IMG/VR virus record: IMGVR_UViG_3300026057_000005
DNA: 64,000 nt
Reading direction: 5' to 3' (one strand)
Source: an uncultured virus (IMG/VR IMGVR_UViG_3300026057_000005)
Taxonomy: Duplodnaviria > Heunggongvirae > Uroviricota > Caudoviricetes
Positions 7,329-45,099 of the stretch are shown one piece after another. Each line of letters opens with the position of its first letter. The first letter of the stretch is position 1. The position numbers and the translations under genes are program-made. The notes below the pieces were generated by a model that saw only the letters and a program-made list of their open reading frames with translations, had not been told where the DNA came from and did not search any database.

Positions 7329-7549
7329 ATCCGAACCCGCGCTACTTTCGATCTCGCGGCGGATGGATCCTCGTCTTCAAAGGGATCCGCACGATTTCGC
7401 GATCGGGCGTTGCCGTACGTTCGGGAGACACCGAGACGACGTTGCTCGTCACGTTCGCGAGCGTGCAGGCGCCGATGACGATGAAAGTCTTCCTCGACGA
7501 GATCGAGCTCCTGATGACGGCGTTCGAGTGCTGGCTGACGCGCCGCTAG
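7325..7549 (+). CDS. hypothetical protein
   Basis: GTGA-coupled ORF. Confidence 0.5.
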   Translation: MNPNPRYFRSRGGWILVFKGIRTISRSGVAVRSGDTETTLLVTFASVQAPMTMKVFLDEIELLMTAFECWLTRR

Positions 7550-8043
7550 GCGCCGACGGTTCGGCTCGGCTTGCCGGGTCGCTTGCCGCTCGGCTTCGCC
7601 TCGTGCGCGTACGGTGCAAGCGCCATGGCGACGAGCTTCAGATCGGTCGTCGTCGGCCGGATGCGCGCGAGCTGCTTACGAAGCGCGATCTCGCGCTCGC
7701 ACGCGATCTCGTGCGCGTCGTCGTAGTCGATGCCGCCGAACAAGACGAGGTTGCGCTCGACGATCTCGTGGAACGTCGTCGCGATCCGGTCGAGCGCGTG
7801 CATCGCGTCGTCGATCCAGATCTCGCCCTTCGGCACGTAGCCCGGATACGCGGCCTCGTTGCCGCCCTGCGTGAAATCGATGTCGATCTCGTTGCGCACG
7901 AGCTCGCCGGAGACGAGGTACACGGGAAGGCCGGTGACGTGGCCGATCAAGTGCAGTCGTGGTGGCTCGATCTTGAGCGCGCTCCTGATCTCGCGATCGA
8001 GCGCGTTGGGATTCCGTCGTCTCGTCTCGGCTGCTCTCGCCAC
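7546..8043 (-). CDS. zincin-like metallopeptidase-type protein with LDREI tag
   Basis: GEIWID...FHEIVE...YDDAH motif; NALDREIRSAL near the start; GTG start inferred. Confidence 0.6.
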   Translation of the reverse strand: MARAAETRRRNPNALDREIRSALKIEPPRLHLIGHVTGLPVYLVSGELVRNEIDIDFTQGGNEAAYPGYVPKGEIWIDDAMHALDRIATTFHEIVERNLVLFGGIDYDDAHEIACEREIALRKQLARIRPTTTDLKLVAMALAPYAHEAKPSGKRPGKPSRTVGA

Positions 8044-8045
8044 GA

Positions 8046-8969
8046 TCAGATCGCCAGGTTGAAGCACGCGCCAAACGTGACGTCCTGGCCGGCCGTCGCG
8101 GGACTCGTCTGCGAGACGATCGTGAAGTACGCGCCGCCGTTCGGTACTTCGAACGACACGGGCTGGTTGCCGTTGACGAGGAAGTTGCCGATGTTGACCG
8201 TCCCCTGCGGGTCCTGCCAGAACCGGAGGTACGCGACGGTGACGCCGGGGACGACGTTCGGCGACTGATCGCACCCGAACACCGTCACGCGTGACGCGAA
8301 CGCTGGCGTGGCGAACACCGAGCTTTCCTCATCCAGCGTGAGCACGCCGATCTGGATCGTGCGGCGCGCGGCCGACGCGCGCGGCAGCCCCGGGTGTACG
8401 AGACCCTTCAGGTTGTAGAGCCCCGAGGTGCCGGGCTGGTTCGCGGCGTCGGGCGTGATGATCGGAAGGACGTCGAGCGTCGACGCCGGGACATTGATCA
8501 CCGTGCCGTTGACGTAGTCGACGATCGCCTCGAAGCGCGCGCCGCCGACACCCCAGCGCACGAGCGCCGAGATCGGTGGCCAGATGATCGAGTGCGCGAG
8601 GCCGGGGTAGAAGCCACCCCCCATCTCTGCGTTGACGAGCGCCCCGGTCGCGTTCGCGCGATCGAGTGTCGCCGCGACCTGCGCCGCCGAGCGCGGGATG
8701 GCAGCGGGCGAGGCCAGCGTGACCTGGAGCTGCATCGCGTCGGCATCGCTTCCGCGGAGCTCGAACAGGTTGGTCATCGCTGACTGGAGCTCGGTCTCGC
8801 TGGCATCGTATTGGATGTTCGTCTGCGCGCCGACGGATTGGCCGGCGGACAGGCGCGCCCATGGCGACTTCGCGTTATCGACGTCATCGTCGATCGCGCG
8901 CGGACGAAGCCCGCCATGCCCGGGACTTAGGACCGGATCGAACAGGGGTTGTGCGCCGCGGGTGTTCAT
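8046..8969 (-). CDS. beta-rich putative structural protein
   Basis: 307 aa with beta-strand pattern; extended -10 (TGGTAGGAT) 7 nt before ATG. Confidence 0.65.
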   Translation of the reverse strand: MNTRGAQPLFDPVLSPGHGGLRPRAIDDDVDNAKSPWARLSAGQSVGAQTNIQYDASETELQSAMTNLFELRGSDADAMQLQVTLASPAAIPRSAAQVAATLDRANATGALVNAEMGGGFYPGLAHSIIWPPISALVRWGVGGARFEAIVDYVNGTVINVPASTLDVLPIITPDAANQPGTSGLYNLKGLVHPGLPRASAARRTIQIGVLTLDEESSVFATPAFASRVTVFGCDQSPNVVPGVTVAYLRFWQDPQGTVNIGNFLVNGNQPVSFEVPNGGAYFTIVSQTSPATAGQDVTFGACFNLAI

Positions 8970-8999
8970 GACGCCGATCCTACCACGTTGCAGGCCGTG

Positions 9000-10280
9000 T
9001 CACGGGTGACCGAAACGACCCCGCCCCTTGCTCTTGCTGAGCTGCGTCGCCGCGAAGAGGCCGCCAGCGGCGAGTGTCGCGGCGATCGCGATCACCTTCC
9101 CGCTCACGCGAACCGCCCTTCCGGTGCTCTGATCGACGACGTCCTGCGCCTGATCGGCCGGCTCGCCGGCGGGCGTCGGATCGCTCGCCGCGGGGCCGGA
9201 AACGGCCTCCGCATTCGAGGGCGCGCCCGCCGCCTGCATCGCCGCGCCGACGTTGGGGCCCGAGATCACAAACGTCGCGCCGCCGTAGCCGGTCCCCGTG
9301 ATCGGCCATCGCCGTCCGCCTCCGCGCCGATCCCACTCGCCCGTCCATTCGCCCGGATCTCGATCGCCGCGCCCGCCGTGCATCGTGAAGTGCATGATCT
9401 CGCGCGCCGCATGCTCGACGTGGCGCGTGGACACCGTCGGCGGCTGGTAGCGCGCCGCGGCCAGCGTCGCGGCCTTCGCACTGGCGTGCGCCGCCGCTGC
9501 CGCCGCGAGCTCGCCGCGCGCGCTCTCGTGGTCGCCGGCGCGCGCCGCCGACGCCGCGCGATCGAGGTTGACGACGGCCGCCGCGCTGGCGATCGAGGCG
9601 TCGCCGATGGCCTGCTTGACCTCGGGGTGCTCGAACGTCCACGCGATACGACCCGAGGTGATCTCCTGCTTGATCTTGTTGAAGATGTCCGTGTAGGTCG
9701 GGATCATCTTGCGATCGAGCGGATCTTTCGCGTCGAGCTTTTGGCCCGGCTTGTAGCCGGTTTGCGCCCAGAACCGCGCGTCTGCCTCCTGGTACGCGCG
9801 CCGCTCGGTCGCTGGATCGAGCGCCGCGGCGCGCGTTGCCGCACGACGCGGCGCGGGCGAGATGTCGACGCTCGATGCGCCGCGCCCACCGGTGCCGGCG
9901 CTTCCGCCGAGATCGTGATCCGCGTGCAGTTTCGTGTAGCTCCCGAGGAGCTCGCTCAGTCTGGCGCGGTAGCCCTTGAGCGCGTTTGCCAGGCGAGCCG
10001 CATCGGTGTCCGTCGCGATCGCGCCGACGAGCTCGTGCACACCGGATCGAAACTTCATCCAGTCGGCGGCGAACGGCTGCCATTGCTGATGGAGAAAGTT
10101 CCACTTGACGAGCTCGCGCGGATCCGACGGGGCGATCGGCACGAACGGGTTGCGCGGATCGGGGACTCCGTGAACGCTGGCCCGAAGCGACCGATCGAAG
10201 GCGTCGGCCGCATCGCCGATGCTGGCGACGTCTCGTTCGGCGTTGTCGAGGATCGCGCGGGATTGGGCCGAAAGGGTCAT
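9000..10280 (-). CDS. membrane-anchored putative virion protein
   Basis: C-terminal TM helix; W-rich helical domain and RFW..TGYK.G..L...DP.D..MIP domain shared with 15274..17586. Confidence 0.75.
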   Translation of the reverse strand: MTLSAQSRAILDNAERDVASIGDAADAFDRSLRASVHGVPDPRNPFVPIAPSDPRELVKWNFLHQQWQPFAADWMKFRSGVHELVGAIATDTDAARLANALKGYRARLSELLGSYTKLHADHDLGGSAGTGGRGASSVDISPAPRRAATRAAALDPATERRAYQEADARFWAQTGYKPGQKLDAKDPLDRKMIPTYTDIFNKIKQEITSGRIAWTFEHPEVKQAIGDASIASAAAVVNLDRAASAARAGDHESARGELAAAAAAHASAKAATLAAARYQPPTVSTRHVEHAAREIMHFTMHGGRGDRDPGEWTGEWDRRGGGRRWPITGTGYGGATFVISGPNVGAAMQAAGAPSNAEAVSGPAASDPTPAGEPADQAQDVVDQSTGRAVRVSGKVIAIAATLAAGGLFAATQLSKSKGRGRFGHP

Positions 10281-10295
10281 GGCTCCGTTAGCCTA

Positions 10296-11564
10296 TCATG
10301 CCGTCGTGGCGACCTGGTCAACTTCGCCGTCCACTCCGACCGCGGACCCCGCCGCCCCCTGCGGCCCTGTGGCACCGGCACCGGCCAGGGTAACGGCTTC
10401 GAGAAACCGCTGGCGCTGGTCGCCGCTGAGGAGCTGCATGATCGCCTGCATCTGGACGTTGGTGATCGTGTCCTTCAGGTCGGTCAGCATCGTCGGTAGG
10501 AGCGTCTGATTGACGGCCTCGTCGTTGACGGTCTCGAAGATCTCCGACAGCGCGATCTGCTGCTCGAGGGACAGGATCGCCTGAAGCGAGGCGCGCTGTT
10601 CGACGGTGAGCGACTCGAGGAGCGTGGAGACCGTGACCGCGATCGCCGAGCGCGCCGCCGGCGGCGCGGCGGGCGCGGCGCCGTTCGTTGTTCCGTTCGC
10701 CGCGCCGTTCGCGCCCGCGCCCGACGCGGCGCCGTTGCCGTTCGCCGCGGCTGACGCGGTGCCGTTCGTCCCGTTCGCGCCGACGCCCGCTTTCGCCGCC
10801 TTCGCGTCGGCGTGCTTGTTGACCGCACGGATAAGGCCCGAGGTAATGACCGGGAACAGCCCGACGATCTTCTTCGTCGTGAGCGTCTTACGCTCCTCGC
10901 GCGACGTCACGGTCAGCGCCTCGATCTCGCGCTCGTGCTCGCGACTGCGCGCGTCGTCGATCGCCTGGATGTATTCACGGCGCTCCTGATCGCGCTTCTC
11001 GATGGCAGAGCGCAGCGCGTTGTTCTCCTCGCGGAGCGCGTTCGCCTGGTGCATGATCGCGGCGAGGAACTGCTGATCGCGGCTCTGCATCCGCTTCTCG
11101 GAGTTGTCGATATGGCGCATGAGCATGCCGACCACGCCGCGCTCGGTCGGTGCTAGTGGCGCGTTCAGGTCGCCGTCGATGCCGCCGTTGTACGAAGTGA
11201 GCGACTGATCGCCCGTGGCGTCGGTCGACGGGTAGAGCGCGAAGCGGTGGACGCGGCGATCGCTGAGCTGGTGCGACGAGCGCACGATGAACGCGTGCGT
11301 GCCGCCGCCGAACGAGTCCGCGCAGCGCTCGGCGATCTTCAGGATCTCGACGGCGACGCGCTCGGCGTTGACGCTCGTGCCGGTCGCGTTCGTGGGATCG
11401 CAGAAGTAGTCGGGATGGCTTCGGAGCGACCAACTCTTGAGCAGGTCGGGGCGCGTACGCGGCGGCGCGTGCAGGAGCTCGATCTCCTCGGTCGACTGGT
11501 AGCCGGTGAGGCGAAGCAGGTCGGTGACGTGCTCGATCAGATCGATACGGTGGTCGGTAGCCAT
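10296..11564 (-). CDS. coiled-coil protein
   Basis: Start 11564 has TGATACGCT 7 nt upstream; long coiled coil and GANG-rich linker. Confidence 0.75.
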   Translation of the reverse strand: MATDHRIDLIEHVTDLLRLTGYQSTEEIELLHAPPRTRPDLLKSWSLRSHPDYFCDPTNATGTSVNAERVAVEILKIAERCADSFGGGTHAFIVRSSHQLSDRRVHRFALYPSTDATGDQSLTSYNGGIDGDLNAPLAPTERGVVGMLMRHIDNSEKRMQSRDQQFLAAIMHQANALREENNALRSAIEKRDQERREYIQAIDDARSREHEREIEALTVTSREERKTLTTKKIVGLFPVITSGLIRAVNKHADAKAAKAGVGANGTNGTASAAANGNGAASGAGANGAANGTTNGAAPAAPPAARSAIAVTVSTLLESLTVEQRASLQAILSLEQQIALSEIFETVNDEAVNQTLLPTMLTDLKDTITNVQMQAIMQLLSGDQRQRFLEAVTLAGAGATGPQGAAGSAVGVDGEVDQVATTA

Positions 11565-11604
11565 GCGCGGAAGCGTATCACGCACGAGCGCAACGCGTAA
11601 CGCT

Positions 11605-12051
11605 CTAGCGTCGGCGCGCGAGAAGGTCCGAGCGTCCGGTGCGCATCTCGAAGTCGCTCGAGAGCCATCGCCCGCCGATGTCCCAGAAGACGGAATGCCA
11701 GCGACGTAGATCGCGCGCGAGCTTGTTCGTGTCCGGACGTCCCTCGACGTCGAGCCGCTCGGCCTCGACATCGTAGAGGTGCGCGGCGTCCATGAAGTCG
11801 GCCTCGGTCCACCCGGGAAACTTCGCCTTCGTCTTGCCGAACACGACGACGTCGTTCGTATCCGGCGCGCCGGCGCGCGTCGGCACGTGCACGGCCTTGC
11901 CGCTCTCGGTGTAGCCGAGCAGGCGCGCGACCGGCGCCTTGCCGGCCTTGCGGATCGCGCGGCCGATGTCGTGCTTGTGCTCGAGCTCGGCATCGCCGGC
12001 GACGAGCGCGGCGGCGATCTCGCGATCGAGTTGTGCGGGCGACTTAGCCAT
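11605..12051 (-). CDS. hypothetical protein with N-terminal KSPAQLDREI tag
   Basis: Begins MAKSPAQLDREIAAAL. Confidence 0.7.
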   Translation of the reverse strand: MAKSPAQLDREIAAALVAGDAELEHKHDIGRAIRKAGKAPVARLLGYTESGKAVHVPTRAGAPDTNDVVVFGKTKAKFPGWTEADFMDAAHLYDVEAERLDVEGRPDTNKLARDLRRWHSVFWDIGGRWLSSDFEMRTGRSDLLARRR

Positions 12052-12475
12052 GGTCGCACTTCGGCGCGTTCTTTGTGCGGGCACGAACGCCGGCCATCGA
12101 TCGCAGGTTGGCGCGATTTTCGACGGGCATTGCCTCGTGGTATGCGAACGCCGCGTCGACGAGCTTGTTCGCACGCTCCACGCTCGGGTCATCGCCGTAG
12201 TCGATCGCCGCGAGTTTAAGATCATCGTCGGCGTCGAGGACGCGCATCATGACGTTCATGGCGTTCGAATCCGGCGAATCCGACGGCCAGGGCAGCGAGG
12301 AGGGCAGCGGGACGTACGTTCCGATTCCGGCGTCGCCGAATGAGCCGTTGCCCTTCATGATGCGCGAGACGCGCCGCATGAAGAACGATGTGGTTTGCCA
12401 CTTCGCGACGTTCACGACGACGATCGCGAGGAGGCATCCGAGGAAGCAGGCGAGGAAGATGGTGGCATTGTTCAT
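12044..12475 (-). CDS. membrane protein
   Basis: N-terminal TM helix; GAGGA RBS. Confidence 0.65.
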   Translation of the reverse strand: MNNATIFLACFLGCLLAIVVVNVAKWQTTSFFMRRVSRIMKGNGSFGDAGIGTYVPLPSSLPWPSDSPDSNAMNVMMRVLDADDDLKLAAIDYGDDPSVERANKLVDAAFAYHEAMPVENRANLRSMAGVRARTKNAPKCDHG

Positions 12476-13500: not shown

Positions 13501-14256
13501 CTAGTCCTCGCTTTCGTGCTCGTGCTGCGCGTGTTCGAGCTCGAGCTCGAGCTCGTGCTCCGTCGGCTTCTTCGATCGCAGGTCGCGCAGGATCGACCAG
13601 AACCCGATGAAACCGGCGACCGTCATGACGCCGAACACGACCGTCTTGCCGAGCGTCATCCACGTATCGAGCGAGGTGCCGGTCCCGTCCGCGCCGCGCT
13701 GCCACACCGTCTTGGGCAGCGCGATCGGGTCTGCGCTCTCGAGCTTGATGCCGCGCGCCCGCGCGCTCGAGCGCAGCGATAGCAACCTGTTCTGCCAGGT
13801 CACGAACACGCTCCACTCCGTCGCGAACGCCGCGACCGAGCTCCGCGCGATCCGCTGCACGAAGTTGCGCCACTCCGCCAGCACCGGCGCGACGTCGGTC
13901 GCGATCCAGACGTGATCGGCGGGCGTCCCGTTCGTCGTCACGTCGCGCTCGAGCGCTTCGTAGTCGAGGCCGAGCTGCGCCAGCGCGTTCGCACGATCGC
14001 TGGCGCCGTGATACCACTCGCCGGCAACGACGGCGCGCTCGAGGCCACGCGAGCCGCGCATCGTCGACGATGCGACGCCTTGCACATGCGCCGCGTAGTC
14101 GACGCCGTCCGCGACGCGGTTCGTAATCGGGGACGCCAACGACTCCGCGACCTCGCGCGCGAGCCAGCGCGCGCCGCGCACGCGGAGGTCTCGCGACGGC
14201 GGCGCAATCGGCGCGGTCGGGTTCATCGCGTTCCAGTGGTTGGCACGGTCGCTCAT
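13501..14256 (-). CDS. membrane-anchored putative virion protein
   Basis: W-rich helical domain (PVLAEWRNF...ARARG) plus C-terminal TM helix. Confidence 0.75.
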   Translation of the reverse strand: MSDRANHWNAMNPTAPIAPPSRDLRVRGARWLAREVAESLASPITNRVADGVDYAAHVQGVASSTMRGSRGLERAVVAGEWYHGASDRANALAQLGLDYEALERDVTTNGTPADHVWIATDVAPVLAEWRNFVQRIARSSVAAFATEWSVFVTWQNRLLSLRSSARARGIKLESADPIALPKTVWQRGADGTGTSLDTWMTLGKTVVFGVMTVAGFIGFWSILRDLRSKKPTEHELELELEHAQHEHESED

Positions 14257-14259
14257 GCG

Positions 14260-14442
14260 CTACTTTCCGCTTCTTCGGCGTGGAATATCGTGACCCGCTG
14301 CGCGCGCCTTCGAGATCTGGATCGCGCGCTCTTGCGCGGCGACGTCGTCGAGTGATTCGTGCACGCCGAGCAACCGGCGCGTCTTCGCTTTGCTGTACAG
14401 CGCGTACAGCGGATGGCGCTTGGTGCCGATGTTCCGGATCAC
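14260..14442 (-). CDS. small basic protein
   Basis: YALYSK...RLLGVH......AQERAIQ; GTG start inferred. Confidence 0.5.
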   Translation of the reverse strand: MIRNIGTKRHPLYALYSKAKTRRLLGVHESLDDVAAQERAIQISKARAAGHDIPRRRSGK

Positions 14443-14453
14443 GTCGCTTGCCC

Positions 14454-15260
14454 TTACTTGCCTCGTCGGCGCGCGAGCCCGCTGTACACAGCGACCGGAT
14501 CGCTCGACTTCCTCGCGTTCACGCCGAGGGATACCGCGACCGTGAGCCCGACAAGCCCGACCGCGCCGATCGCGACGTACTTGACGATCTTCGCCATCTC
14601 CGACGCGGCATCGAGCGCGGTGTCCGTCGGCGCGCGCGTCGGATCGAGGAGTGACTTCCCCCACTTCGTCGGCGCCGGCGTCGCGACGTCCATGCCGAGA
14701 TCGCGCGCCTTCTTGCGGAGCTCGACGAGTTTCTCCGAGAACTGCTCGGCCTCGGGGGCATGGTTCCAGAAGAAATTGTCCGTCCACCCGTGGTGTTGCT
14801 CGTAGAACCCGCGCCACCCGTTCGCGAACGGGATCCATGCGCTGGTGAAGAATTCGCCGAGCCGCTGCTTCTTCGTGTCGGTCGTCGGCGCCGGCACGCT
14901 CTGCTTCTGGATCACCTTCTCGCGCGCCGCAGCGATCTGCTTGCTCTCCTCGTCGAGCGCGTCGAACGCCGCCGCGCCGCCGAGCGGGTACGACCACCAG
15001 GGCGCGCCGACGCTCACAACGCCTGAACTGGCGACGGGCGCAGCGGCGACGGTCATCGGATCGAGCGCGCCGACCGTTCGCGCGAGCTCGGCCGAGAACG
15101 CGCGGATGTCCGCGTCGATCACGTCCATCTCGCTCTGGATGCCGCCCGGCGTTTGCCAGAACGACGCCCCCATCGCGTGCGCGACTCGATCTTGCCGCGC
15201 GATCGCGCGAGCGCGCGTCGCGGGGTAGGCCGGGGTCAGGAATCGTGCGCCGCGGGTCAT
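14454..15260 (-). CDS. membrane-anchored putative virion protein
   Basis: W-rich helical domain (WIPFANGWRGFY...ARDLG) plus TM helix; TGATAGGAT 7 nt before ATG. Confidence 0.75.
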   Translation of the reverse strand: MTRGARFLTPAYPATRARAIARQDRVAHAMGASFWQTPGGIQSEMDVIDADIRAFSAELARTVGALDPMTVAAAPVASSGVVSVGAPWWSYPLGGAAAFDALDEESKQIAAAREKVIQKQSVPAPTTDTKKQRLGEFFTSAWIPFANGWRGFYEQHHGWTDNFFWNHAPEAEQFSEKLVELRKKARDLGMDVATPAPTKWGKSLLDPTRAPTDTALDAASEMAKIVKYVAIGAVGLVGLTVAVSLGVNARKSSDPVAVYSGLARRRGK

Positions 15261-17795: not shown

Positions 17796-17805
17796 AGGAT
17801 AGGTT

Positions 17806-17828
17806 TCCGGACGCGATCTTATCGCGCG
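17806..17828 (-). repeat. partial hairpin element
   Basis: CGCGCGATAAGATCGCGTCCGGA; 5-prime part missing. Confidence 0.65.
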
Positions 17829-34991: not shown

Positions 34992-35131
34992 GGCTCGATT
35001 GTAGAGCACGCCGCGTGCCGCGGGCGATGTGACGCAACCGTGCGTTACATAGGGATCGCGCGGGCCGAATTGTACGACGGATTACGCGGCGTTTTCACAC
35101 TCCGTGCGCGGCGTTCACGCTCCCGGATGCG

Positions 35132-35371: not shown

Positions 35372-35372
35372 T

Positions 35373-36596: not shown

Positions 36597-37528
36597 GATG
36601 TCACTCCAAGGGCGCGCTTCGCGTGATACCACGCGCCGTTGCTGGCCTGGCGCTGCCACGCGCCTTCGGTCGGCGCCCAGCGGAACCCGGCGCTCTTGAG
36701 CTTCGCGCGGATCGTCTCGCTCGGCTTGCCGTCGAAATGGATCTGCACGCGATTGACGTCCTTGTTCTCTTCGATGCGAAAGCCGAGCGGCTTCCCGTCG
36801 GACTCGACCGATCCGACGACGTCCGCCGCGGCCGGCGTCGCCTCTTTCGTCAGGAGCTCGGCGATGCGCTTCTCGATGCGCCGGATGTTCGCTCCGTTGT
36901 TCGTGATCTCGTAGTCGGCGAAACCGATGCGCCCGGCGAAGTCTTTCTCGAGTAGCCTCGCCGCAGCCTTCGGGTGATGGCCGAGCGCAACGAGCGCCGC
37001 GATCTGCGCTTCGGGCCCCGCCTTCGCGTGCTTGCGGATCGCGGCGTTCGCGGCCTTCATGCCCTCCTGGCGCTTGACGAGCGGCGCGAGTTCGGCGCGC
37101 AACTTCTGGACGGCCGCCGGATCATCCGACGAGATCCCGCCGGTCCCGATCGCCGCGGCGCGGCCGGCGAGATCGGCGGCGCGCTTCTCGGCCTCGATCG
37201 ACTTGCGGATGTTGTTGTCGACGCGCTCGAGATCGCGACGGTGCCGGCGCTCGCTGTGATGTCCGACGAGGATGGGCTGCCCCATCGGGATGATGTCGAG
37301 CACCTGCTGCGCGGCGCGGCTGCGCGACGCCGCCTCTCGGCGCGCCTTGCCAGCGGCGGCCTCGAGTCGCTCGCGCTTCGCTTCCTGCTTCTCTTCGTAC
37401 TGCGCGATCCGGATCTCGCGATCGAGCTCGGCGGCAGACTTCTTCGGGGCCCCGGGTGCGGGCGCGTCGCCGCCCTCGATGAGCCACTTCATCGCGTCGC
37501 GACCTGATCCGAACGTGCGCGCTGCCAT
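36593..37528 (-). CDS. DUF3560 domain protein with KSAAELDREI tag
   Basis: IPMGQPILVGHHSERRHRR, ISSDDP.A..KL, Y.ITNNGANIRR, RVQIHFDGKP...LK..GFRWAP...AWQR. Confidence 0.85.
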   Translation of the reverse strand: MAARTFGSGRDAMKWLIEGGDAPAPGAPKKSAAELDREIRIAQYEEKQEAKRERLEAAAGKARREAASRSRAAQQVLDIIPMGQPILVGHHSERRHRRDLERVDNNIRKSIEAEKRAADLAGRAAAIGTGGISSDDPAAVQKLRAELAPLVKRQEGMKAANAAIRKHAKAGPEAQIAALVALGHHPKAAARLLEKDFAGRIGFADYEITNNGANIRRIEKRIAELLTKEATPAAADVVGSVESDGKPLGFRIEENKDVNRVQIHFDGKPSETIRAKLKSAGFRWAPTEGAWQRQASNGAWYHAKRALGVTS

Positions 37529-37571
37529 GCCTCGAACGTACCAGAACGGCCGGCAGCACTCCACCCCGACG

Positions 37572-37609: not shown

Positions 37610-39931
37610 TCACCCCTCCCTCGCCGACCGCTCGCGCTCGGCGAGCATCTCGCGGATCTCCTCGACGTCCGGCGGGAACGTGATCCCGTTCGAGGCGAGC
37701 TTCCGATCGCCGTACCACACCCGCTCGCCGCGCTCGCCGGGCAGCGACCATCGCCGCCGGCGACGCGTGAACAGCCCGCGCTCGGTCTCGCGATCCTTCG
37801 TGCGCCGGCGCGCACCTTCGGTCGGCGTCTCGCCATCCGCCCCGTGCGTCCGCTCGTCGGGATCCTTGCCCGCCGAGCGCACCGCCGCGCCGAACGTGAC
37901 GATCCCGCGATCGATGATCCCCGCGCCGCGCTTCCAGTCGTCCGGCGTGATGCCGGGGACGCCGCGCACGTGCTGCACCCCTTCGGCCTTGTGGTAGACG
38001 GCGCGACCCTCGCGACGCGACGCGACGGGATCGAGTGGCGGAAACTCTGCGAGCTCGCGGAACGCGTACGTGTTCGCGCTGCGCACGTCGAGATCAGCCC
38101 ATGCGTGCTGATACTCCCACTGCCCGAGGCCGTCGCCGAGGGGATCCGGAGCGCCACGGCCGATCGTCCAGAGCGAATCGGTGTTCCCCAGGCACAGGTC
38201 GCCGCTGAACCGCTCGGCCTGCTCGAGCCACTGGATCCGGGTGAGCGCGCGCAGGTACGACGACCACTGCGGGTACGCCGACGGACCGATCCGTGCGTAC
38301 GGGATCGCCCAGATCTCGCCGGCAAGATCGAGCTGCTCGTACGCGCCGCACCGCCCCGTGCACTCGTGACGACACGGCCCCTTGCGCGTGCAGACCTTGA
38401 TCGACGCGGGGTGCATCGTCACGCGCTGGCGCTCCGGGCGCTCGGCGAGCTTGCCCGCGACCGCCTTGCAGAGCTTGCCGATCCACTGCCCGAACGGCGT
38501 CTTGCGCCCGGTCTCGCGCCGGATCGCGTAGAGCCGCTCGACGAACGGCGCGAAGATCGGCGCGGTGCCCTCCCAGACGAGCGCGGTGTGCACGCCGTCG
38601 AGCGACACGCCGCGCTCGAACGCGCACACGAGCTCGGGCAGGGTCCACGTCCCGGTGAAGTTGCCGGTCGGAAACCACATCTGTTTGCCGCGGAGCCAGG
38701 GCAGCGGCGGCAAAAACAGCGTGTCGGGCACGTTCACCGTGCACTGGTACATCCCCGGCGCCAGGTTCTTGAGCGCCAGCATCGCGTCGCGCTGGCCGAG
38801 CTCGCGCACGTCACCGACCGGCAACTCCGCGCGCGCGAGTTGCGCGGGGTACGCGTTACAGATGTCGTGATGGCGCCCCGGTCCGGCGGCGCGCGGGCGG
38901 ACGATCGCGACACGCCCGCCGCGATCGGCGCGGCGCGCGTGGCGCCAGATCGACCACGGGATGTCGGAGTCCGGGATGCCGAGCTCTTCCTGCGCCGCCA
39001 GCCACGCGGTTTGGCCAAGCGTGCCGGCGAGGTGGACGCGATGCGATGCGGTCACGTCACGGAGCTTGCAAAGCCCCTCGTGGAGCCGCTCGCAGTCGGC
39101 GACGCAGTAGTCCTCGAGATCAGGATCGCCGGCCGCGGCGCGTGGGCCGATCTGGCAATAGCGCCCGACGCACGGGCGCCGGCGACGCTTTTTCTTGACC
39201 TCGCTCCGCTCGGCGCTCCGACGCGCACCTTGCGCGTCTCGCGTCCCCTTCGCATCCTTCTTTCGATCGTCCGATTTGCTGTCGTCGACGGCGCCGACGC
39301 CGCATAGGCATCGCCACGACGACGGCAGCGCGGGCACCGGCTTGCCGATGAAGCCACAGATCTCGTCGAGCGGCACCGGCCATACGCCGTAGCTGTCGCG
39401 CAACGTGAGCGCGCCCATGACGATCCGTGACACACGTTGCTGCGCGCGATCGATCTGACACGGGATGCCGCGCACGCGCGCGCGCTCGAGCATGAGGAGC
39501 ATGTCGTAGATCCCGCCGGCGTGCGCCCACCACGTGCCGCCGCGGGCGCGCATGTGATCGATCATCTGGTCGACGTCGTAGAAGACTTTCGCCCGGAAGC
39601 CGTCGTAACAGACGCCGAGGGCGAAGCGATTCCAGTCCGCGCACTCGATGTCGAACGTCCCGTCGATCTGGATCGGCTTGCGGATCGCGAGCCTCTCGGG
39701 CGGAGGTGTCGGCTCGGTCGGCTCGGTCTCGACGTCGGCGTCGGCGTCATCATCGTCGGCGAGCTCGTCGGCGGTAGACTCAGGCGCATCGTCGTCGATC
39801 GCGTCCGGATCGGTGACGGGCTCGGGCGAGATTCCCATCATGCGGAGGATCGCGTTCGCGCGGCTTTCTTCCGGACGCGACGTCGGTTCGCCCGGCTTCT
39901 GTCGCCCTTTCTTCAGTCGCCGCATTCGCAT
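37610..39931 (-). CDS. family B DNA polymerase, protein-primed type, with degenerate motifs
   Basis: ExoI FDIE, ExoII AHAGGIYD, ExoIII YCVADC, DRGGR, motif A DICNAYP, motif B KLCKAVAGK, motif C GNTDS; start uncertain. Confidence 0.8.
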   Translation of the reverse strand: MRMRRLKKGRQKPGEPTSRPEESRANAILRMMGISPEPVTDPDAIDDDAPESTADELADDDDADADVETEPTEPTPPPERLAIRKPIQIDGTFDIECADWNRFALGVCYDGFRAKVFYDVDQMIDHMRARGGTWWAHAGGIYDMLLMLERARVRGIPCQIDRAQQRVSRIVMGALTLRDSYGVWPVPLDEICGFIGKPVPALPSSWRCLCGVGAVDDSKSDDRKKDAKGTRDAQGARRSAERSEVKKKRRRRPCVGRYCQIGPRAAAGDPDLEDYCVADCERLHEGLCKLRDVTASHRVHLAGTLGQTAWLAAQEELGIPDSDIPWSIWRHARRADRGGRVAIVRPRAAGPGRHHDICNAYPAQLARAELPVGDVRELGQRDAMLALKNLAPGMYQCTVNVPDTLFLPPLPWLRGKQMWFPTGNFTGTWTLPELVCAFERGVSLDGVHTALVWEGTAPIFAPFVERLYAIRRETGRKTPFGQWIGKLCKAVAGKLAERPERQRVTMHPASIKVCTRKGPCRHECTGRCGAYEQLDLAGEIWAIPYARIGPSAYPQWSSYLRALTRIQWLEQAERFSGDLCLGNTDSLWTIGRGAPDPLGDGLGQWEYQHAWADLDVRSANTYAFRELAEFPPLDPVASRREGRAVYHKAEGVQHVRGVPGITPDDWKRGAGIIDRGIVTFGAAVRSAGKDPDERTHGADGETPTEGARRRTKDRETERGLFTRRRRRWSLPGERGERVWYGDRKLASNGITFPPDVEEIREMLAERERSAREG

Positions 39932-40746
39932 ACCCCGATCTCGATGCGCTCGCGCTCGGTCACCTTGCGTCGCAATCCGATCTTGACCAACTCGCGCAGC
40001 GTTATTCCGCTTCCGCCAGCATGAAAACCTCGAATGATGGAGTGCCCGAATTCCTCTTCGAGTTGTGCGCGCTGTTCGAACACGTCCGGGTGATTCAAGG
40101 CAACCTGAAGCCAATAGGCGCGGCCACCCTTGACGCAGCCGACGCAGTTCGCGTGCTCGGCCCACTTGTACATGTCCGAAGGCTTCACGCCCATCGTGCA
40201 CTGGCACCAGTCGGCGGTCTGCTGCTTCGTGACACCCTCCTCGATGACCGGGAAGCGCGCCGTGATGCCCTCGCGATCACAGTGCCCGATCATCCGCGTC
40301 ACGCGCGCTGGCTCGCTCGCCGAGTAGCCGATGACCTTCACAATCTCGATCGGGTCGACCGCTTCGATCTCGTCGTCGAGTGGATGAAACGCCGCAGCAA
40401 CGCCACGCGCGCCACGCCATCCGCCGTCGTCGTGCTTGAGCCATGCCACGAAGGCCGAGCCCTGCTCGGCCTTCAGGATGCGCGAGCACATCGTGTTCTG
40501 TCCGTTGCCGAGCATGCCTTCGTCGCGAAACAACTCCGTCACCGAGCGACCGTCGCTGCGCTCGGTAACCGACATGCCGAGCGCAGCCGACATCTCACGA
40601 AGGAAGCGATACGTGTCCGGGTGCTCCTCCTTTGTGTCGTGCCAGAGGAGAATCACCTCATCGCGCGGAAACGTCCGCAGTGCCCATCCGGCGCACCACG
40701 CCGACGTCACGCCACCAGAGAACCCGACGATAATCGCGCGCGTCAC
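39913..40746 (-). CDS. PAPS reductase / adenine nucleotide alpha-hydrolase family protein
   Basis: FSGGVTSA PP-loop, DTKEEHPDTYRF, CSRILK, HANCVGCVKGG, C-terminal CEC. Confidence 0.8.
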   Translation of the reverse strand: MTRAIIVGFSGGVTSAWCAGWALRTFPRDEVILLWHDTKEEHPDTYRFLREMSAALGMSVTERSDGRSVTELFRDEGMLGNGQNTMCSRILKAEQGSAFVAWLKHDDGGWRGARGVAAAFHPLDDEIEAVDPIEIVKVIGYSASEPARVTRMIGHCDREGITARFPVIEEGVTKQQTADWCQCTMGVKPSDMYKWAEHANCVGCVKGGRAYWLQVALNHPDVFEQRAQLEEEFGHSIIRGFHAGGSGITLRELVKIGLRRKVTERERIEIGVCECGD

Positions 40747-41629: not shown

Positions 41630-42154
41630 TTACGGATTCGGATCGGGCTCGCTGTCGTCGAGCGCGCCGGAGAATTTCAGCTTGAGCAGCCCGCGTACCT
41701 CGAGCTGACGGATTCGCTCGCGCGTGAGGTTCAGGATATCGCCGGTACGATCGAGCGTCAGCCCGCCGATCTCGGCGACGTCGAGCGCGCACGTGTGCGT
41801 GAGCTCCCAGGGCTCGAGATCCGGAAAGTTGATCTTGATCGACCCGGTATCCGGGTTGATGTCGAGGTAGAGATGGTGCTTGCACCCAACCCACGGGCAG
41901 GGTCGCTCGCCGTTCGGGCTGCGACCGTCAATGCAATCGCTGCGCGTCTGCGGTCGCTCGTCGTCGAGCGGCGACGGCGGGAATTCGAGCTGGCCGCGCA
42001 TCATGATCTCACGCGTGAGCTTCTTGATCGGGATCGACTGCGCGCGCGGTCGACTGCGCCGGCGTTTCGGGCGGATGCGCGCCGGCTTCGCGGACGGCTC
42101 CGGCGTGGACGGCGCGCCGCCGGCGCCGGTTTCTGGATCGAACTCGTCCTTCAT
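41630..42154 (-). CDS. Cys-rich sigma70 region-4-like HTH transcription factor
   Basis: RPQTRSDC...[15 protein letters not shown]...[13 protein letters not shown]...[13 protein letters not shown]. Confidence 0.8.
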
Positions 42155-43206
42155 CGCCGCCCCGGCCATCCTGCGCGACCCTGCAACGGAACGGTGACCG
42201 TGCGCGCGAACGGGCTCGCCGAGCGAAACACTTGCGTCTCGTGGCTGAAGAACACGTAGAAGTACGGCACGGTGCTCTCCTTGTAGCGCGCCGCCAACGA
42301 GTCATCGGCCGGGTTGTCGATGTCCGCGCCGACGAGCTCGGTGATGATGTCGGAGATCGCGAACGCCCACGCGCCGATCCGCGAGACGACGGAATCGCCC
42401 TCGCCGCGCGCCCGCGGGCGGATCGTGCCGTCGGGATTCTGGCCGGCCTCGGCAAATACGATCCGGATCTGCGAGAGCCGATCCGGGTTGATCGCGGTCT
42501 CGAGGAACACGTCATCCTCGACGACGCGTAGCCCGCGCGCCAACGTCTGGTACGAGATCGCGTCCTCGGGATCGAACCGGCCGACGATGAACCACGGGGT
42601 ACGCGACGCGCGGACAGCTGCCTCGATGCCCTGATCCTCGATCAGGTTCGCCGCGCCGCCGCCGGGGTTCGTGATCGTCAGCCCGACGTCGAACACGGTC
42701 GCCAGGTCGTCGCGGATGCGCGTAAGCCAGTCGTTCGCCGCGGCCTCGGCGGTACGCCGCGGATCGGCGTCGCGCATGCGTTGCTCGAGGCGTTGCCGGC
42801 GACGGCGCGCGTTGCGTGCCTGGCGCTGCGCTTCCTCGCGAGCGCGGGCCTCGGCACGCGCCGCGCGAGCTCGCGCGTTGCGGGCGGCCTTCTGTTGCGC
42901 GGCGCGCGCGGCGACTGCGGCGCGCGCGGCGGCTGCGGCGCGCGCGGCGACGGCGGCTTGCTTCTTCGTGAGCTTCGCCGGTGCCGGCTTCTTCGGCTTC
43001 GGCGCAGACTTCTTCGGCGCAGACTTCTTCGGCGCAGGCTTCTTCGGCGCCGGCTTCGGTGACCTTCGAACGGCAACCAACTTCGCCTTCGGTGCAGGCT
43101 TCTTCGGCTTCTTCGTTGCCTTTGTCGCCTTCGTCGCCGACGCACGCGCCGGCCGGCGCTTCGTGGCGCTGGCCTTCTTGCGCTTCGGTGTGCGTTGCTT
43201 TGCCAT
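42151..43206 (-). CDS. histone H1-like K/A/P-rich protein with globular C-terminus
   Basis: [10 protein letters not shown] repeats followed by an Arg/Ala helix. Confidence 0.7.
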
Positions 43207-43379
43207 GCGCGGACGACAGACGACGATCAGCGAACGAGCGCGCGGCAGCACGCTCTAGAAATGAAAGCAGCGATCGAGCATAGCGCGATCGCGGACGGCG
43301 AAGCGCACCACGACAACATCGAGTAGCCCTCGATCTTGACGCAGTGCGCTTCGCGCGTACCGCTTGACGAAGCGATCGA

Positions 43380-43976
43380 CTAGTGCGTGACCGCGCTGTT
43401 GCCGGCGGCCGGCAGCGCCGACTGACCGGCCGGCGCGTCGCCGACATCGAGCACCGGCTTCATCGCCCACGAGCGCGTCTGACCGTCGACGCGCGGACCG
43501 GCGACCAGGTACTCGGTCACGCGAAAGCCACCCTTGGTCTCGATGTCCTGGCCACGCACGATCTTCACCATGCCACCGACGAACGGCGGCAACTTACGAT
43601 CGAGCTGCGCGCCGCCGAGGATCGACGCGCGCTGTCCGCCGTTGGCATCGCGCACGATCCACGTCTTCACGATGTTCGTCTTGACCTGCTTCGTCGCCTT
43701 GTCGACCTGCTCGAGCTCGGCCTCGGGGCCGTTGCCTTCGAGGATGCCCTCGAGCATGTCGCCCTCCTCGAGCTTGAGGAGCTGCGGCGCGAATTCCATC
43801 GTCTTGTCGGTGACGATGGACTGGATGTCCTCCTGTGTCACCTTGCGGATCATCCCCGCCGCGGCGGTGACGATCTGCGGAGCGTTGCTCGCGTCCTCGG
43901 GCGCGTTGCCAGTCGCCTTCGCGACCACGTTGTTGTACTTCGTGCTCTTGCTGTTCGGGTTCACGGGATCCGCCAT
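43380..43976 (-). CDS. putative single-stranded DNA-binding (OB-fold) protein
   Basis: EGDMLEG...ILGGAQLDRKL..VGGMVKI.RG......GF....Y.V pattern; replication context; purine-rich leader. Confidence 0.5.
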   Translation of the reverse strand: MADPVNPNSKSTKYNNVVAKATGNAPEDASNAPQIVTAAAGMIRKVTQEDIQSIVTDKTMEFAPQLLKLEEGDMLEGILEGNGPEAELEQVDKATKQVKTNIVKTWIVRDANGGQRASILGGAQLDRKLPPFVGGMVKIVRGQDIETKGGFRVTEYLVAGPRVDGQTRSWAMKPVLDVGDAPAGQSALPAAGNSAVTH

Positions 43977-44043
43977 TTGATTTCTCTTTTCTTTTCCGTA
44001 TCTCGAGCGTTCACATCGCGCCCCCACCATAGGAACGCTTTCG

Positions 44044-44106
44044 TCGCGCGCTGCGGATTCGAACCGCGGCATCTAGAATGCCGACCCCCTTCCGGGTCCG
44101 CACGCG
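44044..44106 (-). ncRNA. compact tRNA-like cloverleaf with CUA in the anticodon-position loop
   Basis: CGCGTGC/GCGCGCG acceptor, GACCC/GGGTC arm, GGCA-TTCTAGA-TGCC arm, GCGG-TTCGAAT-CCGC T-arm; intergenic and co-oriented with neighbours. Confidence 0.5.
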
Positions 44107-44121
44107 TTTCGCTGTCCGTCG

Positions 44122-45099
44122 CTACAAGAGCAAGTTCGTCTGCTTCCAGTCGCGCACGCCGCCACCGCAGATCACGAGCTCGTGGACGTTCTTTCGCTTC
44201 TCGCCCGCCGCGGCCATCGTGTGCCGCGTCGCCAGCGTGCCGAGCTTGAAGTCCTCACACCCGGCCAACGATCCGTAGATTTCGCGCACGAGCTCGGTAT
44301 CGCTGTTCGAGATCATGACGCGTGCGCCGGCCTTGACGATCTCGCGCGCGACGAACGCGAGTTCGCGCTGGCTGTCCGCGTCGAATCCGTCCGCGGTGTA
44401 CCCTGCGAACGTGCCATCGTACGGCGGATCGAAGTACACGAAGTCGCCGGCGCGCACGTCCTTCACAGCGTCCGTGTAGTCGCCGGACTTGAGCGTGACA
44501 CCGGCGAGCGCGAGGGCGCACGCGCGCAGGTTCGTCTCGTCGCAGAGCGCGTTGTCGCGCTCGATGTCCTCCGGCTTGATCACGCGATCGCCGGCAGGCG
44601 TGTTCATCTTGCCGTTCTTCGCGACGCGCCATAGTCCGTTGAAGCACGCGCGATTCAGATAGAGGAAGTCTCCGGATGTCGTGCTCCTCTTCTCGTTCCA
44701 GTGCTCGCGCGTCGCGTAGTAGTGGAGTTTTCCGTTGGCGACGTGCGCGCGTACGTGGGCTCGCAGTTCCTCGATCGTTCGATCGACGTAAGTCCGCACG
44801 TCGTAGAACGCGAACATCAACGCCTCGTTCGCGTCGGACAGGACGACGTGACGCATGTCGACGCCGCCCGGCGCATCGCTCGACGCCGCCGCGAGTGCGA
44901 AGAACAGCGCGGCGCCGCCGGCGAACGGCTCGAGGTAGCGACGATCGGCACGGCGACCGACGTACGGAGGGACGAGCGCGGCCAGGTCGTTCGCGATCTT
45001 GCCCTTGCCGCCGGCCCAACGCACGAACGGCTTCGCGATCGGCGCGACGCCTGCGGGACTCTCTTCGATCGTCGAGGTCGCCGTCGTCTTGGTCATCAT
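44122..45099 (-). CDS. dam: Dam-family (D12 class) N6-adenine DNA methyltransferase
   Basis: PFVRWAGGK, YLEPFAGGAALF, YLNRACFNGLWR, VYFDPPY, VMISNSD. Confidence 0.9.
   Translation of the reverse strand: MMTKTTATSTIEESPAGVAPIAKPFVRWAGGKGKIANDLAALVPPYVGRRADRRYLEPFAGGAALFFALAAASSDAPGGVDMRHVVLSDANEALMFAFYDVRTYVDRTIEELRAHVRAHVANGKLHYYATREHWNEKRSTTSGDFLYLNRACFNGLWRVAKNGKMNTPAGDRVIKPEDIERDNALCDETNLRACALALAGVTLKSGDYTDAVKDVRAGDFVYFDPPYDGTFAGYTADGFDADSQRELAFVAREIVKAGARVMISNSDTELVREIYGSLAGCEDFKLGTLATRHTMAAAGEKRKNVHELVICGGGVRDWKQTNLLL

What the first reader, a model, noticed from the sequence alone, without database searches (positions are those of the whole stretch)
7546..45099. Apparent large tailless virus: jelly-roll-like capsid pair, membrane proteins and protein-primed-type PolB, without head-tail genes
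Seen: twin beta-rich capsid-like genes, an adjacent transglutaminase-like protein, many TM-anchored proteins, spike/fibre and cement-like genes, a TM-anchored lytic transglycosylase and a pPolB-like polymerase. No terminase, portal, HK97 capsid or tail gene was recognised in 64 kb. Established: pPolB with an internal membrane typifies tectiviruses (~15 kb), and paired single jelly-roll capsids typify Halopanivirales; both groups have much smaller genomes. Inference: a >64-kb Varidnaviria-like or novel lineage. Caveat: no A32/FtsK packaging ATPase was recognised here.
Basis: inference. Interest (0 to 1): 0.8.

Follow-up and report, generated by a model that had tools for sequence, protein, structure and literature searches.

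The report
Unrecognised large virus-like element, soil/wetland
This stretch belongs to a large, almost entirely unannotated virus-like genome from wetland and soil metagenomes that shows no head or tail genes, has a tectivirus-type polymerase and carries a strongly conserved pair of small jelly-roll-like proteins that may build a tailless capsid, though this is not proven.

Summary
The window (68% GC, part of a 77.7-kb contig) holds two adjacent genes with a 94%-identical C-terminal domain, a polymerase whose only relatives in phage and plasmid collections are tectivirus protein-primed PolBs, a weak transglutaminase-like Cys-His-Asp protein, at least six single-pass membrane proteins and several fibre or spike-like proteins. 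No terminase, portal, HK97 capsid or tail family was found, even at E<=0.5. The lytic transglycosylase was not confirmed. No FtsK/HerA or P23-77-type packaging ATPase is present.

Best reading (about 0.45): a new lineage of large, probably tailless bacterial viruses. Rivals are a very divergent tailed phage whose head and tail genes lie in the unseen 13.7 kb, and a non-viral element. Automatic Atlas labels ("Uroviricota") weigh against the tailless reading.

The parts
21449..22111 (-). Short twin gene. Database start at 22072, 207 aa. Disordered N-terminus plus a conserved 136-aa C-terminal beta-sandwich.
20510..21310 (-). Long twin gene, 266 aa. Q/Y/P/H/R-rich N-terminus plus the same C-terminal domain.
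22457..22936 (-). Conserved small Gly/Ala-rich hydrophobic protein upstream of the twins.
   Evidence: Homologues in 31 loci. No family hit.
24067..24903 (+). Divergently transcribed HTH regulator. Relatives hit MerR.
   Evidence: Homologues in 15 loci. MerR hits in L052, L009 and L036. Weak excisionase-type PHROG hits.
19794..20471 (-). Transglutaminase-like Cys-His-Asp protein. True start is near 20372.
   Evidence: An intein sits at the catalytic Cys in L009.
18706..19641 (-). N-terminally anchored protein with a conserved C-terminal domain of unknown fold.
   Evidence: Homologues in 13 loci. No lysozyme or SLT support.
15274..18150 (-). Large Ala-rich protein. The ORF is probably over-extended at its 5' end. 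It shares a motif with 9000-10280.
13501..15260 (-). Two proteins with C-terminal membrane anchors (13501-14256 and 14454-15260).
9000..12475 (-). Three genes: an N-terminally anchored 143-aa protein, a coiled-coil protein and a C-terminally anchored 426-aa protein.
8046..8969 (-). 307-aa protein predicted as two tandem beta-sandwich domains. Candidate vertex or capsid protein.
24879..26147 (+). RadA/Sms-like RecA-fold ATPase with an N-terminal zinc ribbon.
   Evidence: TIGR00416 E 7e-59, below the family cut-off.
26448..27419 (-). Glycine-rich fibre-like protein with the shared N-terminal motif.
33226..37564 (-). Replication-associated genes: a RuvA_C-domain protein, a 468-aa Cys-rich protein, a 428-aa protein and a DUF3560/primase-PHROG protein.
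37610..40207 (-). Protein-primed-type family B DNA polymerase.
   Evidence: Exo and Pol motifs are visible in the translation.
41630..45201 (-). Four genes: a sigma-70 region-4 HTH protein, a Lys/Ala-rich 366-aa protein, a 230-aa protein and a D12 Dam methyltransferase.
51227..51667 (+). Small protein with the fibre N-terminal motif and a sub-threshold Phage_cement_2 hit.
51943..53640 (+). ARC/Mpa (proteasome-ATPase)-like classic AAA+ protein.
   Evidence: PF00004 E 2.3e-31. TIGR03689 E 6.8e-65, below the family cut-off.
55297..60644 (+). Two paralogous GT2-like proteins, an FtsJ-like methyltransferase and small ORFs.
61982..64000 (+). Beta-helix spike-like protein with N-terminal repeats. It runs off the window.
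5521..6552 (.). Two divergent small genes, 5521-5946(-) and 6031-6552(+), with the shared fibre N-terminal motif.

Best explanation
The window is part of the genome of a previously undescribed lineage of large bacterial viruses. Its own contig is 77.7 kb, and one relative has a circular 102.7-kb map. The host is unknown and the habitat is wetland, peat and soil.

Inferred mechanism: the tandem 'twin' genes encode the shell subunits. Each has a variable, low-complexity and partly basic N-terminal arm and a nearly identical single beta-sandwich (jelly-roll-like) C-terminal domain. These domains would co-assemble into capsomers. Gene conversion would keep them identical within a genome because they must fit one lattice.

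The adjacent Cys-His-Asp transglutaminase-fold protein would act as a maturation protease or cross-linker. The run of single-pass membrane proteins downstream would form a virion membrane with entry or fusion machinery. The two-domain 8046-8969 protein, and five fibre or spike proteins that share an N-terminal MSxxxIxPGGxP peptide, would form vertices and receptor-binding appendages.

DNA is copied by a tectivirus-like protein-primed PolB in this member. Other members carry a primase-helicase or SNF2 helicase instead.

Shown here: the genes, their conservation, synteny, predicted folds and polymerase affinity. Inferred: every virion role, the absence of a tail and the presence of a membrane.
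For: Twin family:
- It is large and strongly conserved: 311 proteins at >=50% identity, and 1,503 representative clusters at E<=1e-3.
- Against the closest long relative, L005, the twins are the best-conserved proteins: 70-74% identity, against 51% for PolB and 31-53% for the rest.
- Genes occur as tandem arrays of 2-4. Within a locus, C-domain DNA identity is 85-98% in 13 of the 16 loci compared. The other 3 loci gave some ungapped values of 0.34-0.56, which I attribute to indels.

Fold of the twin C-domain (model pLDDT 62 overall, 70-90 in the domain):

Fold of 8046-8969:
- The model has two beta-sandwich domains.
- Foldseek returns tandem jelly-roll proteins, including PR772 and PRD1 P3 and the STIV capsid protein, at E about 1e-3.

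Synteny:
- The module 24067 / 22457 / twins / 19794 / 18706 / 15274 / 14454 / 13501 recurs in 5-31 loci, next to different replication genes.

No head or tail genes:
- 66 window proteins.
- 32 unknown window proteins at E<=0.5.
- 140 relatives' proteins against Pfam and 150 against PHROGs, with overlapping sets.

Other virus-like content:
- A beta-helix spike, a collagen-like fibre in L041, Dam and N4/N6 methyltransferases, inteins, endonuclease VII and tRNA genes in L065.
- The polymerase's only relatives are tectiviral.

Absences elsewhere:
- The family is absent from plasmids.
- 185,579 species genomes gave only one weak tblastn hit.
- The Atlas labels 73-90% of labelled cluster members as viruses.
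Against: - hhalign of the twin profile against P23-77 VP16 and VP17 gives probability below 1%.
- 8046-8969 does not match double-jelly-roll capsid proteins over both domains. None is among the top 50 by VIA. Its pTM is 0.52.
- The window has no FtsK/HerA or P23-77-type packaging ATPase.
- The HerA-type ATPase near the module in one relative belongs to a family that also sits in the early region of an ordinary tailed-phage genome, MW202482.1. It is therefore not a capsid hallmark.
- Some family members are single chains with a signal or TM segment and 3-5 tandem domains. One is fused to a KaiC-like ATPase. This architecture is more usual for surface or adhesin proteins than for shell subunits.
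- Atlas labels give Uroviricota as the commonest phylum.
- A spike gene runs off the window end, and 13.7 kb of the contig is unseen.
- Two 'head and packaging' PHROG hits occurred in the window: phrog_800 on the RadA-like ATPase (35 residues) and phrog_1644 on a 2OG oxygenase. Both proteins have stronger hits to other families.
Confidence: 0.45

Rival explanations
1. It is a very divergent tailed phage (Caudoviricetes). Its terminase, portal, HK97 capsid and tail genes would lie in the unseen 13.7 kb, or be too divergent for Pfam and PHROGs. The twin proteins would then be accessory virion proteins (decoration, fibre or baseplate) or non-structural.
For: - Atlas clusters of the twin family are labelled commonest Uroviricota.
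- The beta-helix spike hits PHROG tail fibre and tail spike families, and the gene runs off the window end.
- There is a Phage_cement_2-like hit.
- The 15274-18150 product is Ala-rich and helical, like a tape measure.
- The HerA-type ATPase family of relatives also occurs in a tailed-phage genome.
- BFVD neighbours of the 8046 model are mostly tail or fibre proteins of tailed phages.
Against: - No terminase, portal, capsid, tube, sheath or baseplate family in 64 kb, even at E<=0.5.
- None within about 10 kb of the twin genes in the long related loci (140 proteins from 11 loci against Pfam, 150 from 14 loci against PHROGs). Structural genes of tailed phages normally cluster.
- The family is absent from IMG/VR and GenBank phages. 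That would be odd for recognisable tailed phages.
- The Atlas labels are automatic.
Confidence: 0.27
2. It is a non-viral mobile element, such as a large plasmid or a conjugative or other extrachromosomal element. The conserved module would encode envelope or surface proteins: beta-sandwich repeat proteins, a papain-like hydrolase and membrane proteins, as in Gram-positive transfer systems.
For: - One relative has a circular map.
- The module contains many membrane-anchored proteins and a Cys-His-Asp hydrolase-like protein.
- Some family members are signal/TM plus 3-5 tandem domains.
- No capsid hallmark is proven.
- No packaging ATPase is present in the window.
Against: - No relaxase, VirB4, VirD4, FtsK/TraB, partition or replication-initiator family in the window.
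- No match to 72,556 plasmids, and one weak tblastn hit in 185,579 species genomes.
- The window has spike and fibre-like proteins and a tectiviral-type polymerase.
- Atlas labels are mostly 'Viruses'.
Confidence: 0.18
3. It is a virus with a non-icosahedral or capsid-less virion, such as a pleomorphic membrane vesicle. The twin proteins would be DNA-binding nucleoproteins and the membrane proteins would be spikes.
For: - The long twin has a basic N-terminal stretch.
- The module contains many membrane-anchored proteins.
- No packaging ATPase is present.
Against: - No known pleomorphic bacterial virus has a genome of this size (recalled, not tested).
- The twin domain's neighbours are shell-forming jelly rolls.
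Confidence: 0.1

Closest known systems
Halopanivirales (P23-77, IN93, SH1, HCIV-1, HHIV-2), now placed by ICTV outside Varidnaviria according to my recollection. In the listing, PMC12714852 holds the words Helvetiavirae and Singelaviria; I did not read the paper.
   Different: - No sequence or profile similarity.
- Here the paralogues share one nearly identical domain, whereas VP16 and VP17 are two dissimilar proteins.
- No adjacent packaging ATPase, whereas P23-77 ORF13 lies just upstream of its capsid genes.
- The genome is at least 77.7 kb, against 17 kb for P23-77.
Tectiviridae (Bam35, AP50, pGIL01, PRD1/PR772)
   Different: - The genome is at least five times larger.
- No double-jelly-roll capsid protein was demonstrated.
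- No P9-type ATPase is present.
- Relatives of the element replace the pPolB with other replication genes.
Sulfolobus polyhedral virus 1 (Portogloboviridae) and STIV turret proteins
   Different: They are archaeal viruses with no sequence similarity to this element. The scores are in the non-specific range.
Large or jumbo tailed phages of soil metagenomes
   Same: Size, ORFan-rich content, methyltransferases, inteins, tRNA genes and a spike protein.
   Different: No terminase, portal or HK97 capsid was detected.

Membership tests
Protein-primed family B DNA polymerases (Pfam PF03175) | Match to DNA_pol_B_2 above the gathering score | tested here: met
   E 5.7e-11, 42.4 bits against a cut-off of 25.8, residues 421-569.
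Protein-primed family B DNA polymerases (Pfam PF03175) | Exonuclease and polymerase catalytic motifs | tested here: met
   Read by eye in the translation: FDIE, GGIYD, YCVAD, DICNAYP and NTDS. The motif names are recalled.
Protein-primed family B DNA polymerases (Pfam PF03175) | Terminal protein and inverted terminal repeats | not testable with these tools
   The contig ends were not available. One relative has a circular map, and it has no PolB in the 21 kb held.
Halopanivirales-type virus | Two capsid proteins with single vertical jelly rolls | tested here: inconclusive
Halopanivirales-type virus | FtsK/HerA-superfamily packaging ATPase next to the capsid genes | tested here: not met
   - Only two canonical P-loop proteins in the window, RadA-like and AAA+.
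- The HerA profile and the P23-77 ORF13 sequence find nothing in the window.
- 13.7 kb of the contig was unseen.
Halopanivirales-type virus | Internal membrane | not testable with these tools
   Only membrane-anchor predictions are available.
Tectiviridae | [quoted passage not shown] | tested here: inconclusive
Tectiviridae | Linear genome of about 15 kb | tested here: not met
   The contig is 77,738 bp. Tectiviral records are 13-15 kb.
Caudoviricetes | Terminase large subunit, portal and HK97-fold capsid protein | tested here: inconclusive
   No hit in the window or in related loci. However, 13.7 kb was unseen, only two proteins were folded, and Atlas labels say Uroviricota.
Transglutaminase-like cysteine proteases (PF01841) | Cys-His-Asp triad in a Transglut_core match | tested here: inconclusive
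   7 of 9 relatives match weakly (best E 0.0021), while the window protein itself has no hit. The triad is invariant. An intein sits at the Cys in L009.
Lytic transglycosylase / lysozyme | SLT or lysozyme family match in a membrane-anchored protein | tested here: not met
   No such family in 66 window proteins. The 18706-family profile gives nothing in PDB or Pfam.

The most novel reading that the evidence does not exclude
This is a founding member of a deep, so far uncatalogued lineage of large tailless bacterial viruses. Genomes are 78 to over 100 kb; twin-bearing contigs reach 231 and 461 kb, of which only about 20 kb each was seen. The shell would be built from tandem, concertedly evolving single-jelly-roll proteins with disposable N-terminal arms, beside a cysteine-protease-like maturation enzyme and a set of virion membrane proteins. 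The lineage is widespread in soils and wetlands, yet absent from the IMG/VR, GenBank phage and plasmid collections searched here, because it carries none of the usual hallmark genes.
Probability: 0.35. Interest if true: 0.9.

Novelty: new variant of a known kind. Interest (0 to 1): 0.72.

Why it matters
Known tailless, membrane-containing bacterial and archaeal viruses with jelly-roll capsids have genomes of roughly 10-30 kb (recalled). A lineage five to ten times larger would change the view that large prokaryotic virus genomes are a monopoly of tailed phages. It would also give a prokaryotic parallel to the growth of jelly-roll viruses into giant viruses in eukaryotes.

Whatever the particle looks like, the twin domain is a large 'dark' family: 1,503 clusters at 50% identity, with no Pfam, PHROG or NCBIfam model. 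It marks ORFan-rich elements that current virus catalogues miss. A profile of it would be a practical marker for recovering them.

Tried and rejected
- No whole genome is held for the window. Records behind the metagenome loci cannot be searched. I therefore could not inspect the other 13.7 kb of the contig, or complete relatives.
- The polymerase found no relatives in species genomes or IMG/VR and none in PDB sequences.
- 8046-8969 in IMG/VR gave one weak hit, L001, which I did not pursue.
- The twin family gave no match in IMG/VR by peptide patterns or by a degenerate DNA motif, none in GenBank phages and none in plasmids. One weak Streptomyces hit, L002, was not confirmed by the domain profile at E<1e-5.
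- My first guess was that 51943-53640, 53568-54860 and 55297-56208 were terminase, portal and capsid. This was wrong: they are an AAA+ protein, an unknown protein and a GT2-like protein.
- The 'terminase large subunit' PHROG hit in L077 was re-read as a HerA-type ATPase. It was then discounted as a capsid marker.
- Distant paralogues of the twin domain in 60692-61261 and 47699-48043 are not significant (E 0.083 and 0.29).
- The Atlas search with 8046-8969 was uninformative (scores 0.76, TM <=0.39).
- No RNA holder was listed for the stretch.
- Earlier notes of this scan held nothing.
- The listing of cluster members gave no names.
- Four literature searches (listings and abstract starts only, no paper read) showed no description of such a group.
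- Promoter and terminator scans of 17-27 kb gave counts near the shuffled expectation.
Full report
WHAT IS IN THE WINDOW

The window has 65-72% GC throughout. High-GC DNA gives many spurious ORFs (345 of at least 80 aa), so I called genes by third-position GC. This gave 83 calls, translated. No whole genome is held. A protein search shows that the window's contig is 77,738 bp, so 13.7 kb was never seen.

Of 66 proteins scanned, 15 had a Pfam hit at E<=0.01 and 14 had a PHROG hit at E<=0.001. The recognisable genes are:
- A family B polymerase of the protein-primed type, 37610-40207(-): PF03175, E 5.7e-11, above the family cut-off.
- A DUF3560/primase-PHROG protein.
- A D12 Dam methyltransferase.
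- A sigma-70 region-4 HTH protein.
- A RuvA_C-domain protein.
- Two 2OG-Fe(II) oxygenases.
- A DUF4031 protein.
- A RadA/Sms-like ATPase, 24879-26147(+): TIGR00416 E 7e-59, below its cut-off.
- A classic AAA+ protein, 51943-53640(+), most like ARC/Mpa proteasome ATPases: TIGR03689 E 6.8e-65, below its cut-off.
- Two paralogous GT2-like proteins, 39% identical.
- An FtsJ-like methyltransferase.
- A beta-helix spike-like protein that runs off the window end.

No terminase, portal, HK97 capsid, tail tube, sheath or baseplate family appeared. Two 'head and packaging' PHROG rows did appear. One was a 35-residue P-loop match of the RadA-like ATPase to a small-terminase family. The other was a 2OG oxygenase matching a 'minor coat protein' family. 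Both proteins have much stronger hits elsewhere. A permissive scan (E<=0.5) of 32 unexplained proteins gave no head, packaging or connector hit. Tail-category rows appeared only at E 0.027-0.43.

- Twin genes are real. They share 98.6% amino-acid identity over the last 140 residues and 94.3% DNA identity over 420 nt.
- The polymerase's only relatives are Bacillus tectiviruses or their linear plasmid forms: 12 of 12 records in 50,697 phage records and 20 of 20 in 72,556 plasmid records, at 22-29% identity over 27-41% of the query. No pipolin-type hit appeared.
- The 'transglutaminase-like' gene, 19794-20471(-), has no Pfam hit itself. However, 7 of 9 aligned relatives hit Transglut_core weakly, and Cys128, His198 and Asp210 are invariant. 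In relative L009 an intein with a LAGLIDADG domain interrupts the gene exactly at that cysteine. Inteins usually sit at catalytic sites, so this fits a catalytic residue.
- Single hydrophobic anchors are predicted in at least six proteins of the 9-20 kb block and in 28016-29011.
- The lytic transglycosylase could not be confirmed.

THE TWIN FAMILY

The short twin has 311 relatives at >=50% identity in the 5.8-billion-protein collection, none with a Pfam domain. A profile search of 1.84 billion representatives finds 1,503 clusters at E<=1e-3, 647 at <=1e-10 and 150 at <=1e-30.

A metagenome scan returned 89 relatives, of which 77 loci from JGI metagenome contigs were kept; the contigs reach 461 kb.

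A profile of the 136-residue C-terminal domain shows tandem arrays of 2-4 genes in the long loci. Each gene has a different low-complexity N-terminus of 85-360 residues.

Within a locus the C-domains are 85-98% identical at the DNA level in 13 of the 16 loci compared. The other 3 loci (L003, L038/L045-type and L052) gave some ungapped values of 0.34-0.56, which I attribute to indels. Between genomes, the proteins are 50-85% identical. This is concerted evolution.

Against the closest long relative, L005, the twins are the best-conserved proteins: 70-74% identity, against 51% for PolB and 31-53% for eleven others.

Some members are single chains with a signal or TM segment and 3-5 tandem domains. 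One is fused to a KaiC-like ATPase.

FOLDS

The short twin model (60-sequence alignment; pLDDT 62 overall, disordered to about residue 70, 70-90 in the domain) is a beta-sandwich.
- Foldseek found nothing at E<=1e-3. The best rows were the furin P-domain and CUB domains.

The 8046-8969 model (16 sequences; pLDDT 74, pTM 0.52) has two beta-sandwich domains.
- Foldseek lists only tandem jelly-roll proteins: PNGase F, SID1, and PR772/PRD1 P3 and the STIV capsid protein at E about 1e-3 with TM about 0.2.
- VIA matches only the C-domain: YomS 8.3, XepA 7.8-8.1, PR772 P31 7.7, STIV A223 7.1-7.3.
- BFVD neighbours are mostly tail or fibre proteins.

CONTEXT IN RELATIVES

The order 24067 (MerR-type regulator, divergent) / 22457 / twins / 19794 / 18706 / 15274 / 14454 / 13501 recurs. 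By tblastn, homologues are in 15, 31, 77, 15, 13, 9, 5 and 6 loci respectively.

The replication genes beside the module differ between elements: PolB and RadA in L005, primase-helicase in L014, and SNF2 helicase in L077. The remaining neighbours are ORFans, including 20 kb inside the 231-kb and 461-kb contigs. None of 140 proteins (Pfam, 11 loci) or 150 proteins (PHROGs, 14 loci; overlapping sets) hit a portal, capsid or tail-tube family.

The contig Ga0335076_10000044 (102,754 bp) begins inside a short-twin C-domain and ends just upstream of a long twin. Its end region is a 94.4% repeat of that domain (214 nt). The map is therefore circular and the assembly broke in the repeat.

THE ATPASE QUESTION

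Only two canonical Walker A proteins lie in real ORFs of the window.

In L077, a protein 4 kb upstream of the module hit a PHROG named 'terminase large subunit'. Its Walker A and B motifs and its 'SQRSQ...VLSQ' motif, together with 5 of 5 PDB sequence hits, identify it as HerA-type. Its family has 1,204 hits, many with PF01935. It shares six contig lengths with the twin family, so co-occurrence is inferred from equal lengths.

However, a profile of this family finds nothing in the window. The same family also sits among early genes of a complete tailed-phage genome that has its own terminase, portal, capsid and tape measure (MW202482.1). I therefore do not count it as a packaging hallmark. The P23-77 packaging ATPase also finds nothing.

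WHERE THE FAMILY IS NOT FOUND, AND HOW IT IS LABELLED

The family is absent from IMG/VR, from GenBank phages and from plasmids. In 185,579 species genomes there was one weak tblastn hit, which the domain profile did not confirm at E<1e-5.

The ESM Atlas labels 73-90% of labelled members of the nearest clusters as viruses, with Uroviricota the commonest phylum where one is known, for 10-30 members per cluster. These are automatic labels. They support 'virus' and lean against 'tailless'.

The window's DNA is held by wetland metagenome runs, with small shares in a peat run.

READING

The best-supported reading is a new lineage of large bacterial viruses whose conserved module is the morphogenetic module. 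The tandem twins would be shell subunits.

Points in favour:
- The twins' conservation rank within the module.
- Their concerted evolution.
- The 'disordered basic arm plus jelly roll' layout.
- The neighbouring protease-like and membrane proteins.
- The swapped replication modules.
- The lack of head and tail genes.
- Five fibre or spike-like proteins share the N-terminal peptide MSxxxIxPGGxP. This suggests a common docking site on the particle.

Points against:
- The non-specific fold scores.
- The missing packaging ATPase.
- The multi-domain secreted-looking family members.
- The Atlas labels.
- The unseen 13.7 kb.

I put the tailless jelly-roll virus at 0.45, a divergent tailed phage at 0.27, a non-viral element at 0.18 and another virion type at 0.10.

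LITERATURE

Four full-text searches listed no paper describing such a group. I saw only listings and the starts of abstracts, and I read no paper. Statements about genome sizes and capsid architecture of Halopanivirales and tectiviruses beyond searches are recalled.

Noticed in passing
window 5280, 5989, 17535, 22422, 23461, 25179, 33979, 37572, 45291, 51068, 59375, 60648, 61485, 61531: A 31-32-nt hairpin element (a CAGACGAG leader, then a GGACGCGA...TCGCGTCC stem) occurs 14 times on both strands, against 0 in 20 Markov-simulated sequences. Seven copies are intergenic. Four copies with a longer stem lie in frame inside genes (a 2OG oxygenase, the RadA-like ATPase, the 33603 protein and the FtsJ-like methyltransferase). 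There they are translated as SQTRTRExSRPD, like a miniature in-frame palindromic insertion element.
   Followed up: partly
window 51771-51893 (+): Rfam tRNA match (40 bits against a cut-off of 29) with intact acceptor, D and T arms but a 59-nt anticodon loop region, about 52 nt more than usual. ARAGORN does not call it. No canonical U33/anticodon register could be read. It may be a tRNA with an intron, or one disrupted by an insertion.
   Followed up: partly
L009:11760-13262: In this relative the transglutaminase-like gene is split by an intein with a LAGLIDADG domain. The intein sits exactly at the invariant catalytic cysteine (GHGD | intein | CDRLVAWR).
   Followed up: yes
window 20510-22111 and loci L005, L036, L041, L042, L047, L056 and others: Tandem twin genes are homogenised within each genome (85-98% DNA identity of the C-domain), while the N-terminal halves are unrelated. 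Many metagenome contigs end inside this repeat.
   Followed up: yes
P0258, P0259, P0260, P0261, P0374 (proteins): Some family members are single chains with 3-5 tandem copies of the twin domain behind a signal or TM segment. One is fused to a KaiC/RecA-like ATPase.
   Followed up: partly
window 5521-5946(-), 6031-6552(+), 26448-27419(-), 51227-51667(+), 61982-64000(+): Five otherwise different fibre, spike or cement-like proteins begin with the same peptide, MS-x3-[IV]-x-P-GG-x-P.
   Followed up: partly
L077:4065-5771(-) and MW202482.1 20547-22415: A large family of HerA-type ATPases with C-terminal winged-helix-like repeats (1,204 hits). PHROGs names it a terminase large subunit. It occurs both beside the twin module and in the early region of a tailed-phage genome.
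   Followed up: partly
window 51943-53640 (+); L009:5314-6198: A proteasome-ATPase (ARC/Mpa)-like AAA+ protein, with a coiled-coil or OB-like N-terminal part, is encoded by the element. A shorter AAA+ lies near the twin module in L009.
   Followed up: no
L065:2751-2960: Two tRNA genes lie 7 kb upstream of the twin gene in a relative. ARAGORN reads one of them with a four-base anticodon.
   Followed up: no
window 9000-10280 and 15274-18150: Two membrane-associated proteins share a 41-residue motif (41% identity; FW..TGYK.G..L...DP.DR.MIP) of unknown function.
   Followed up: no
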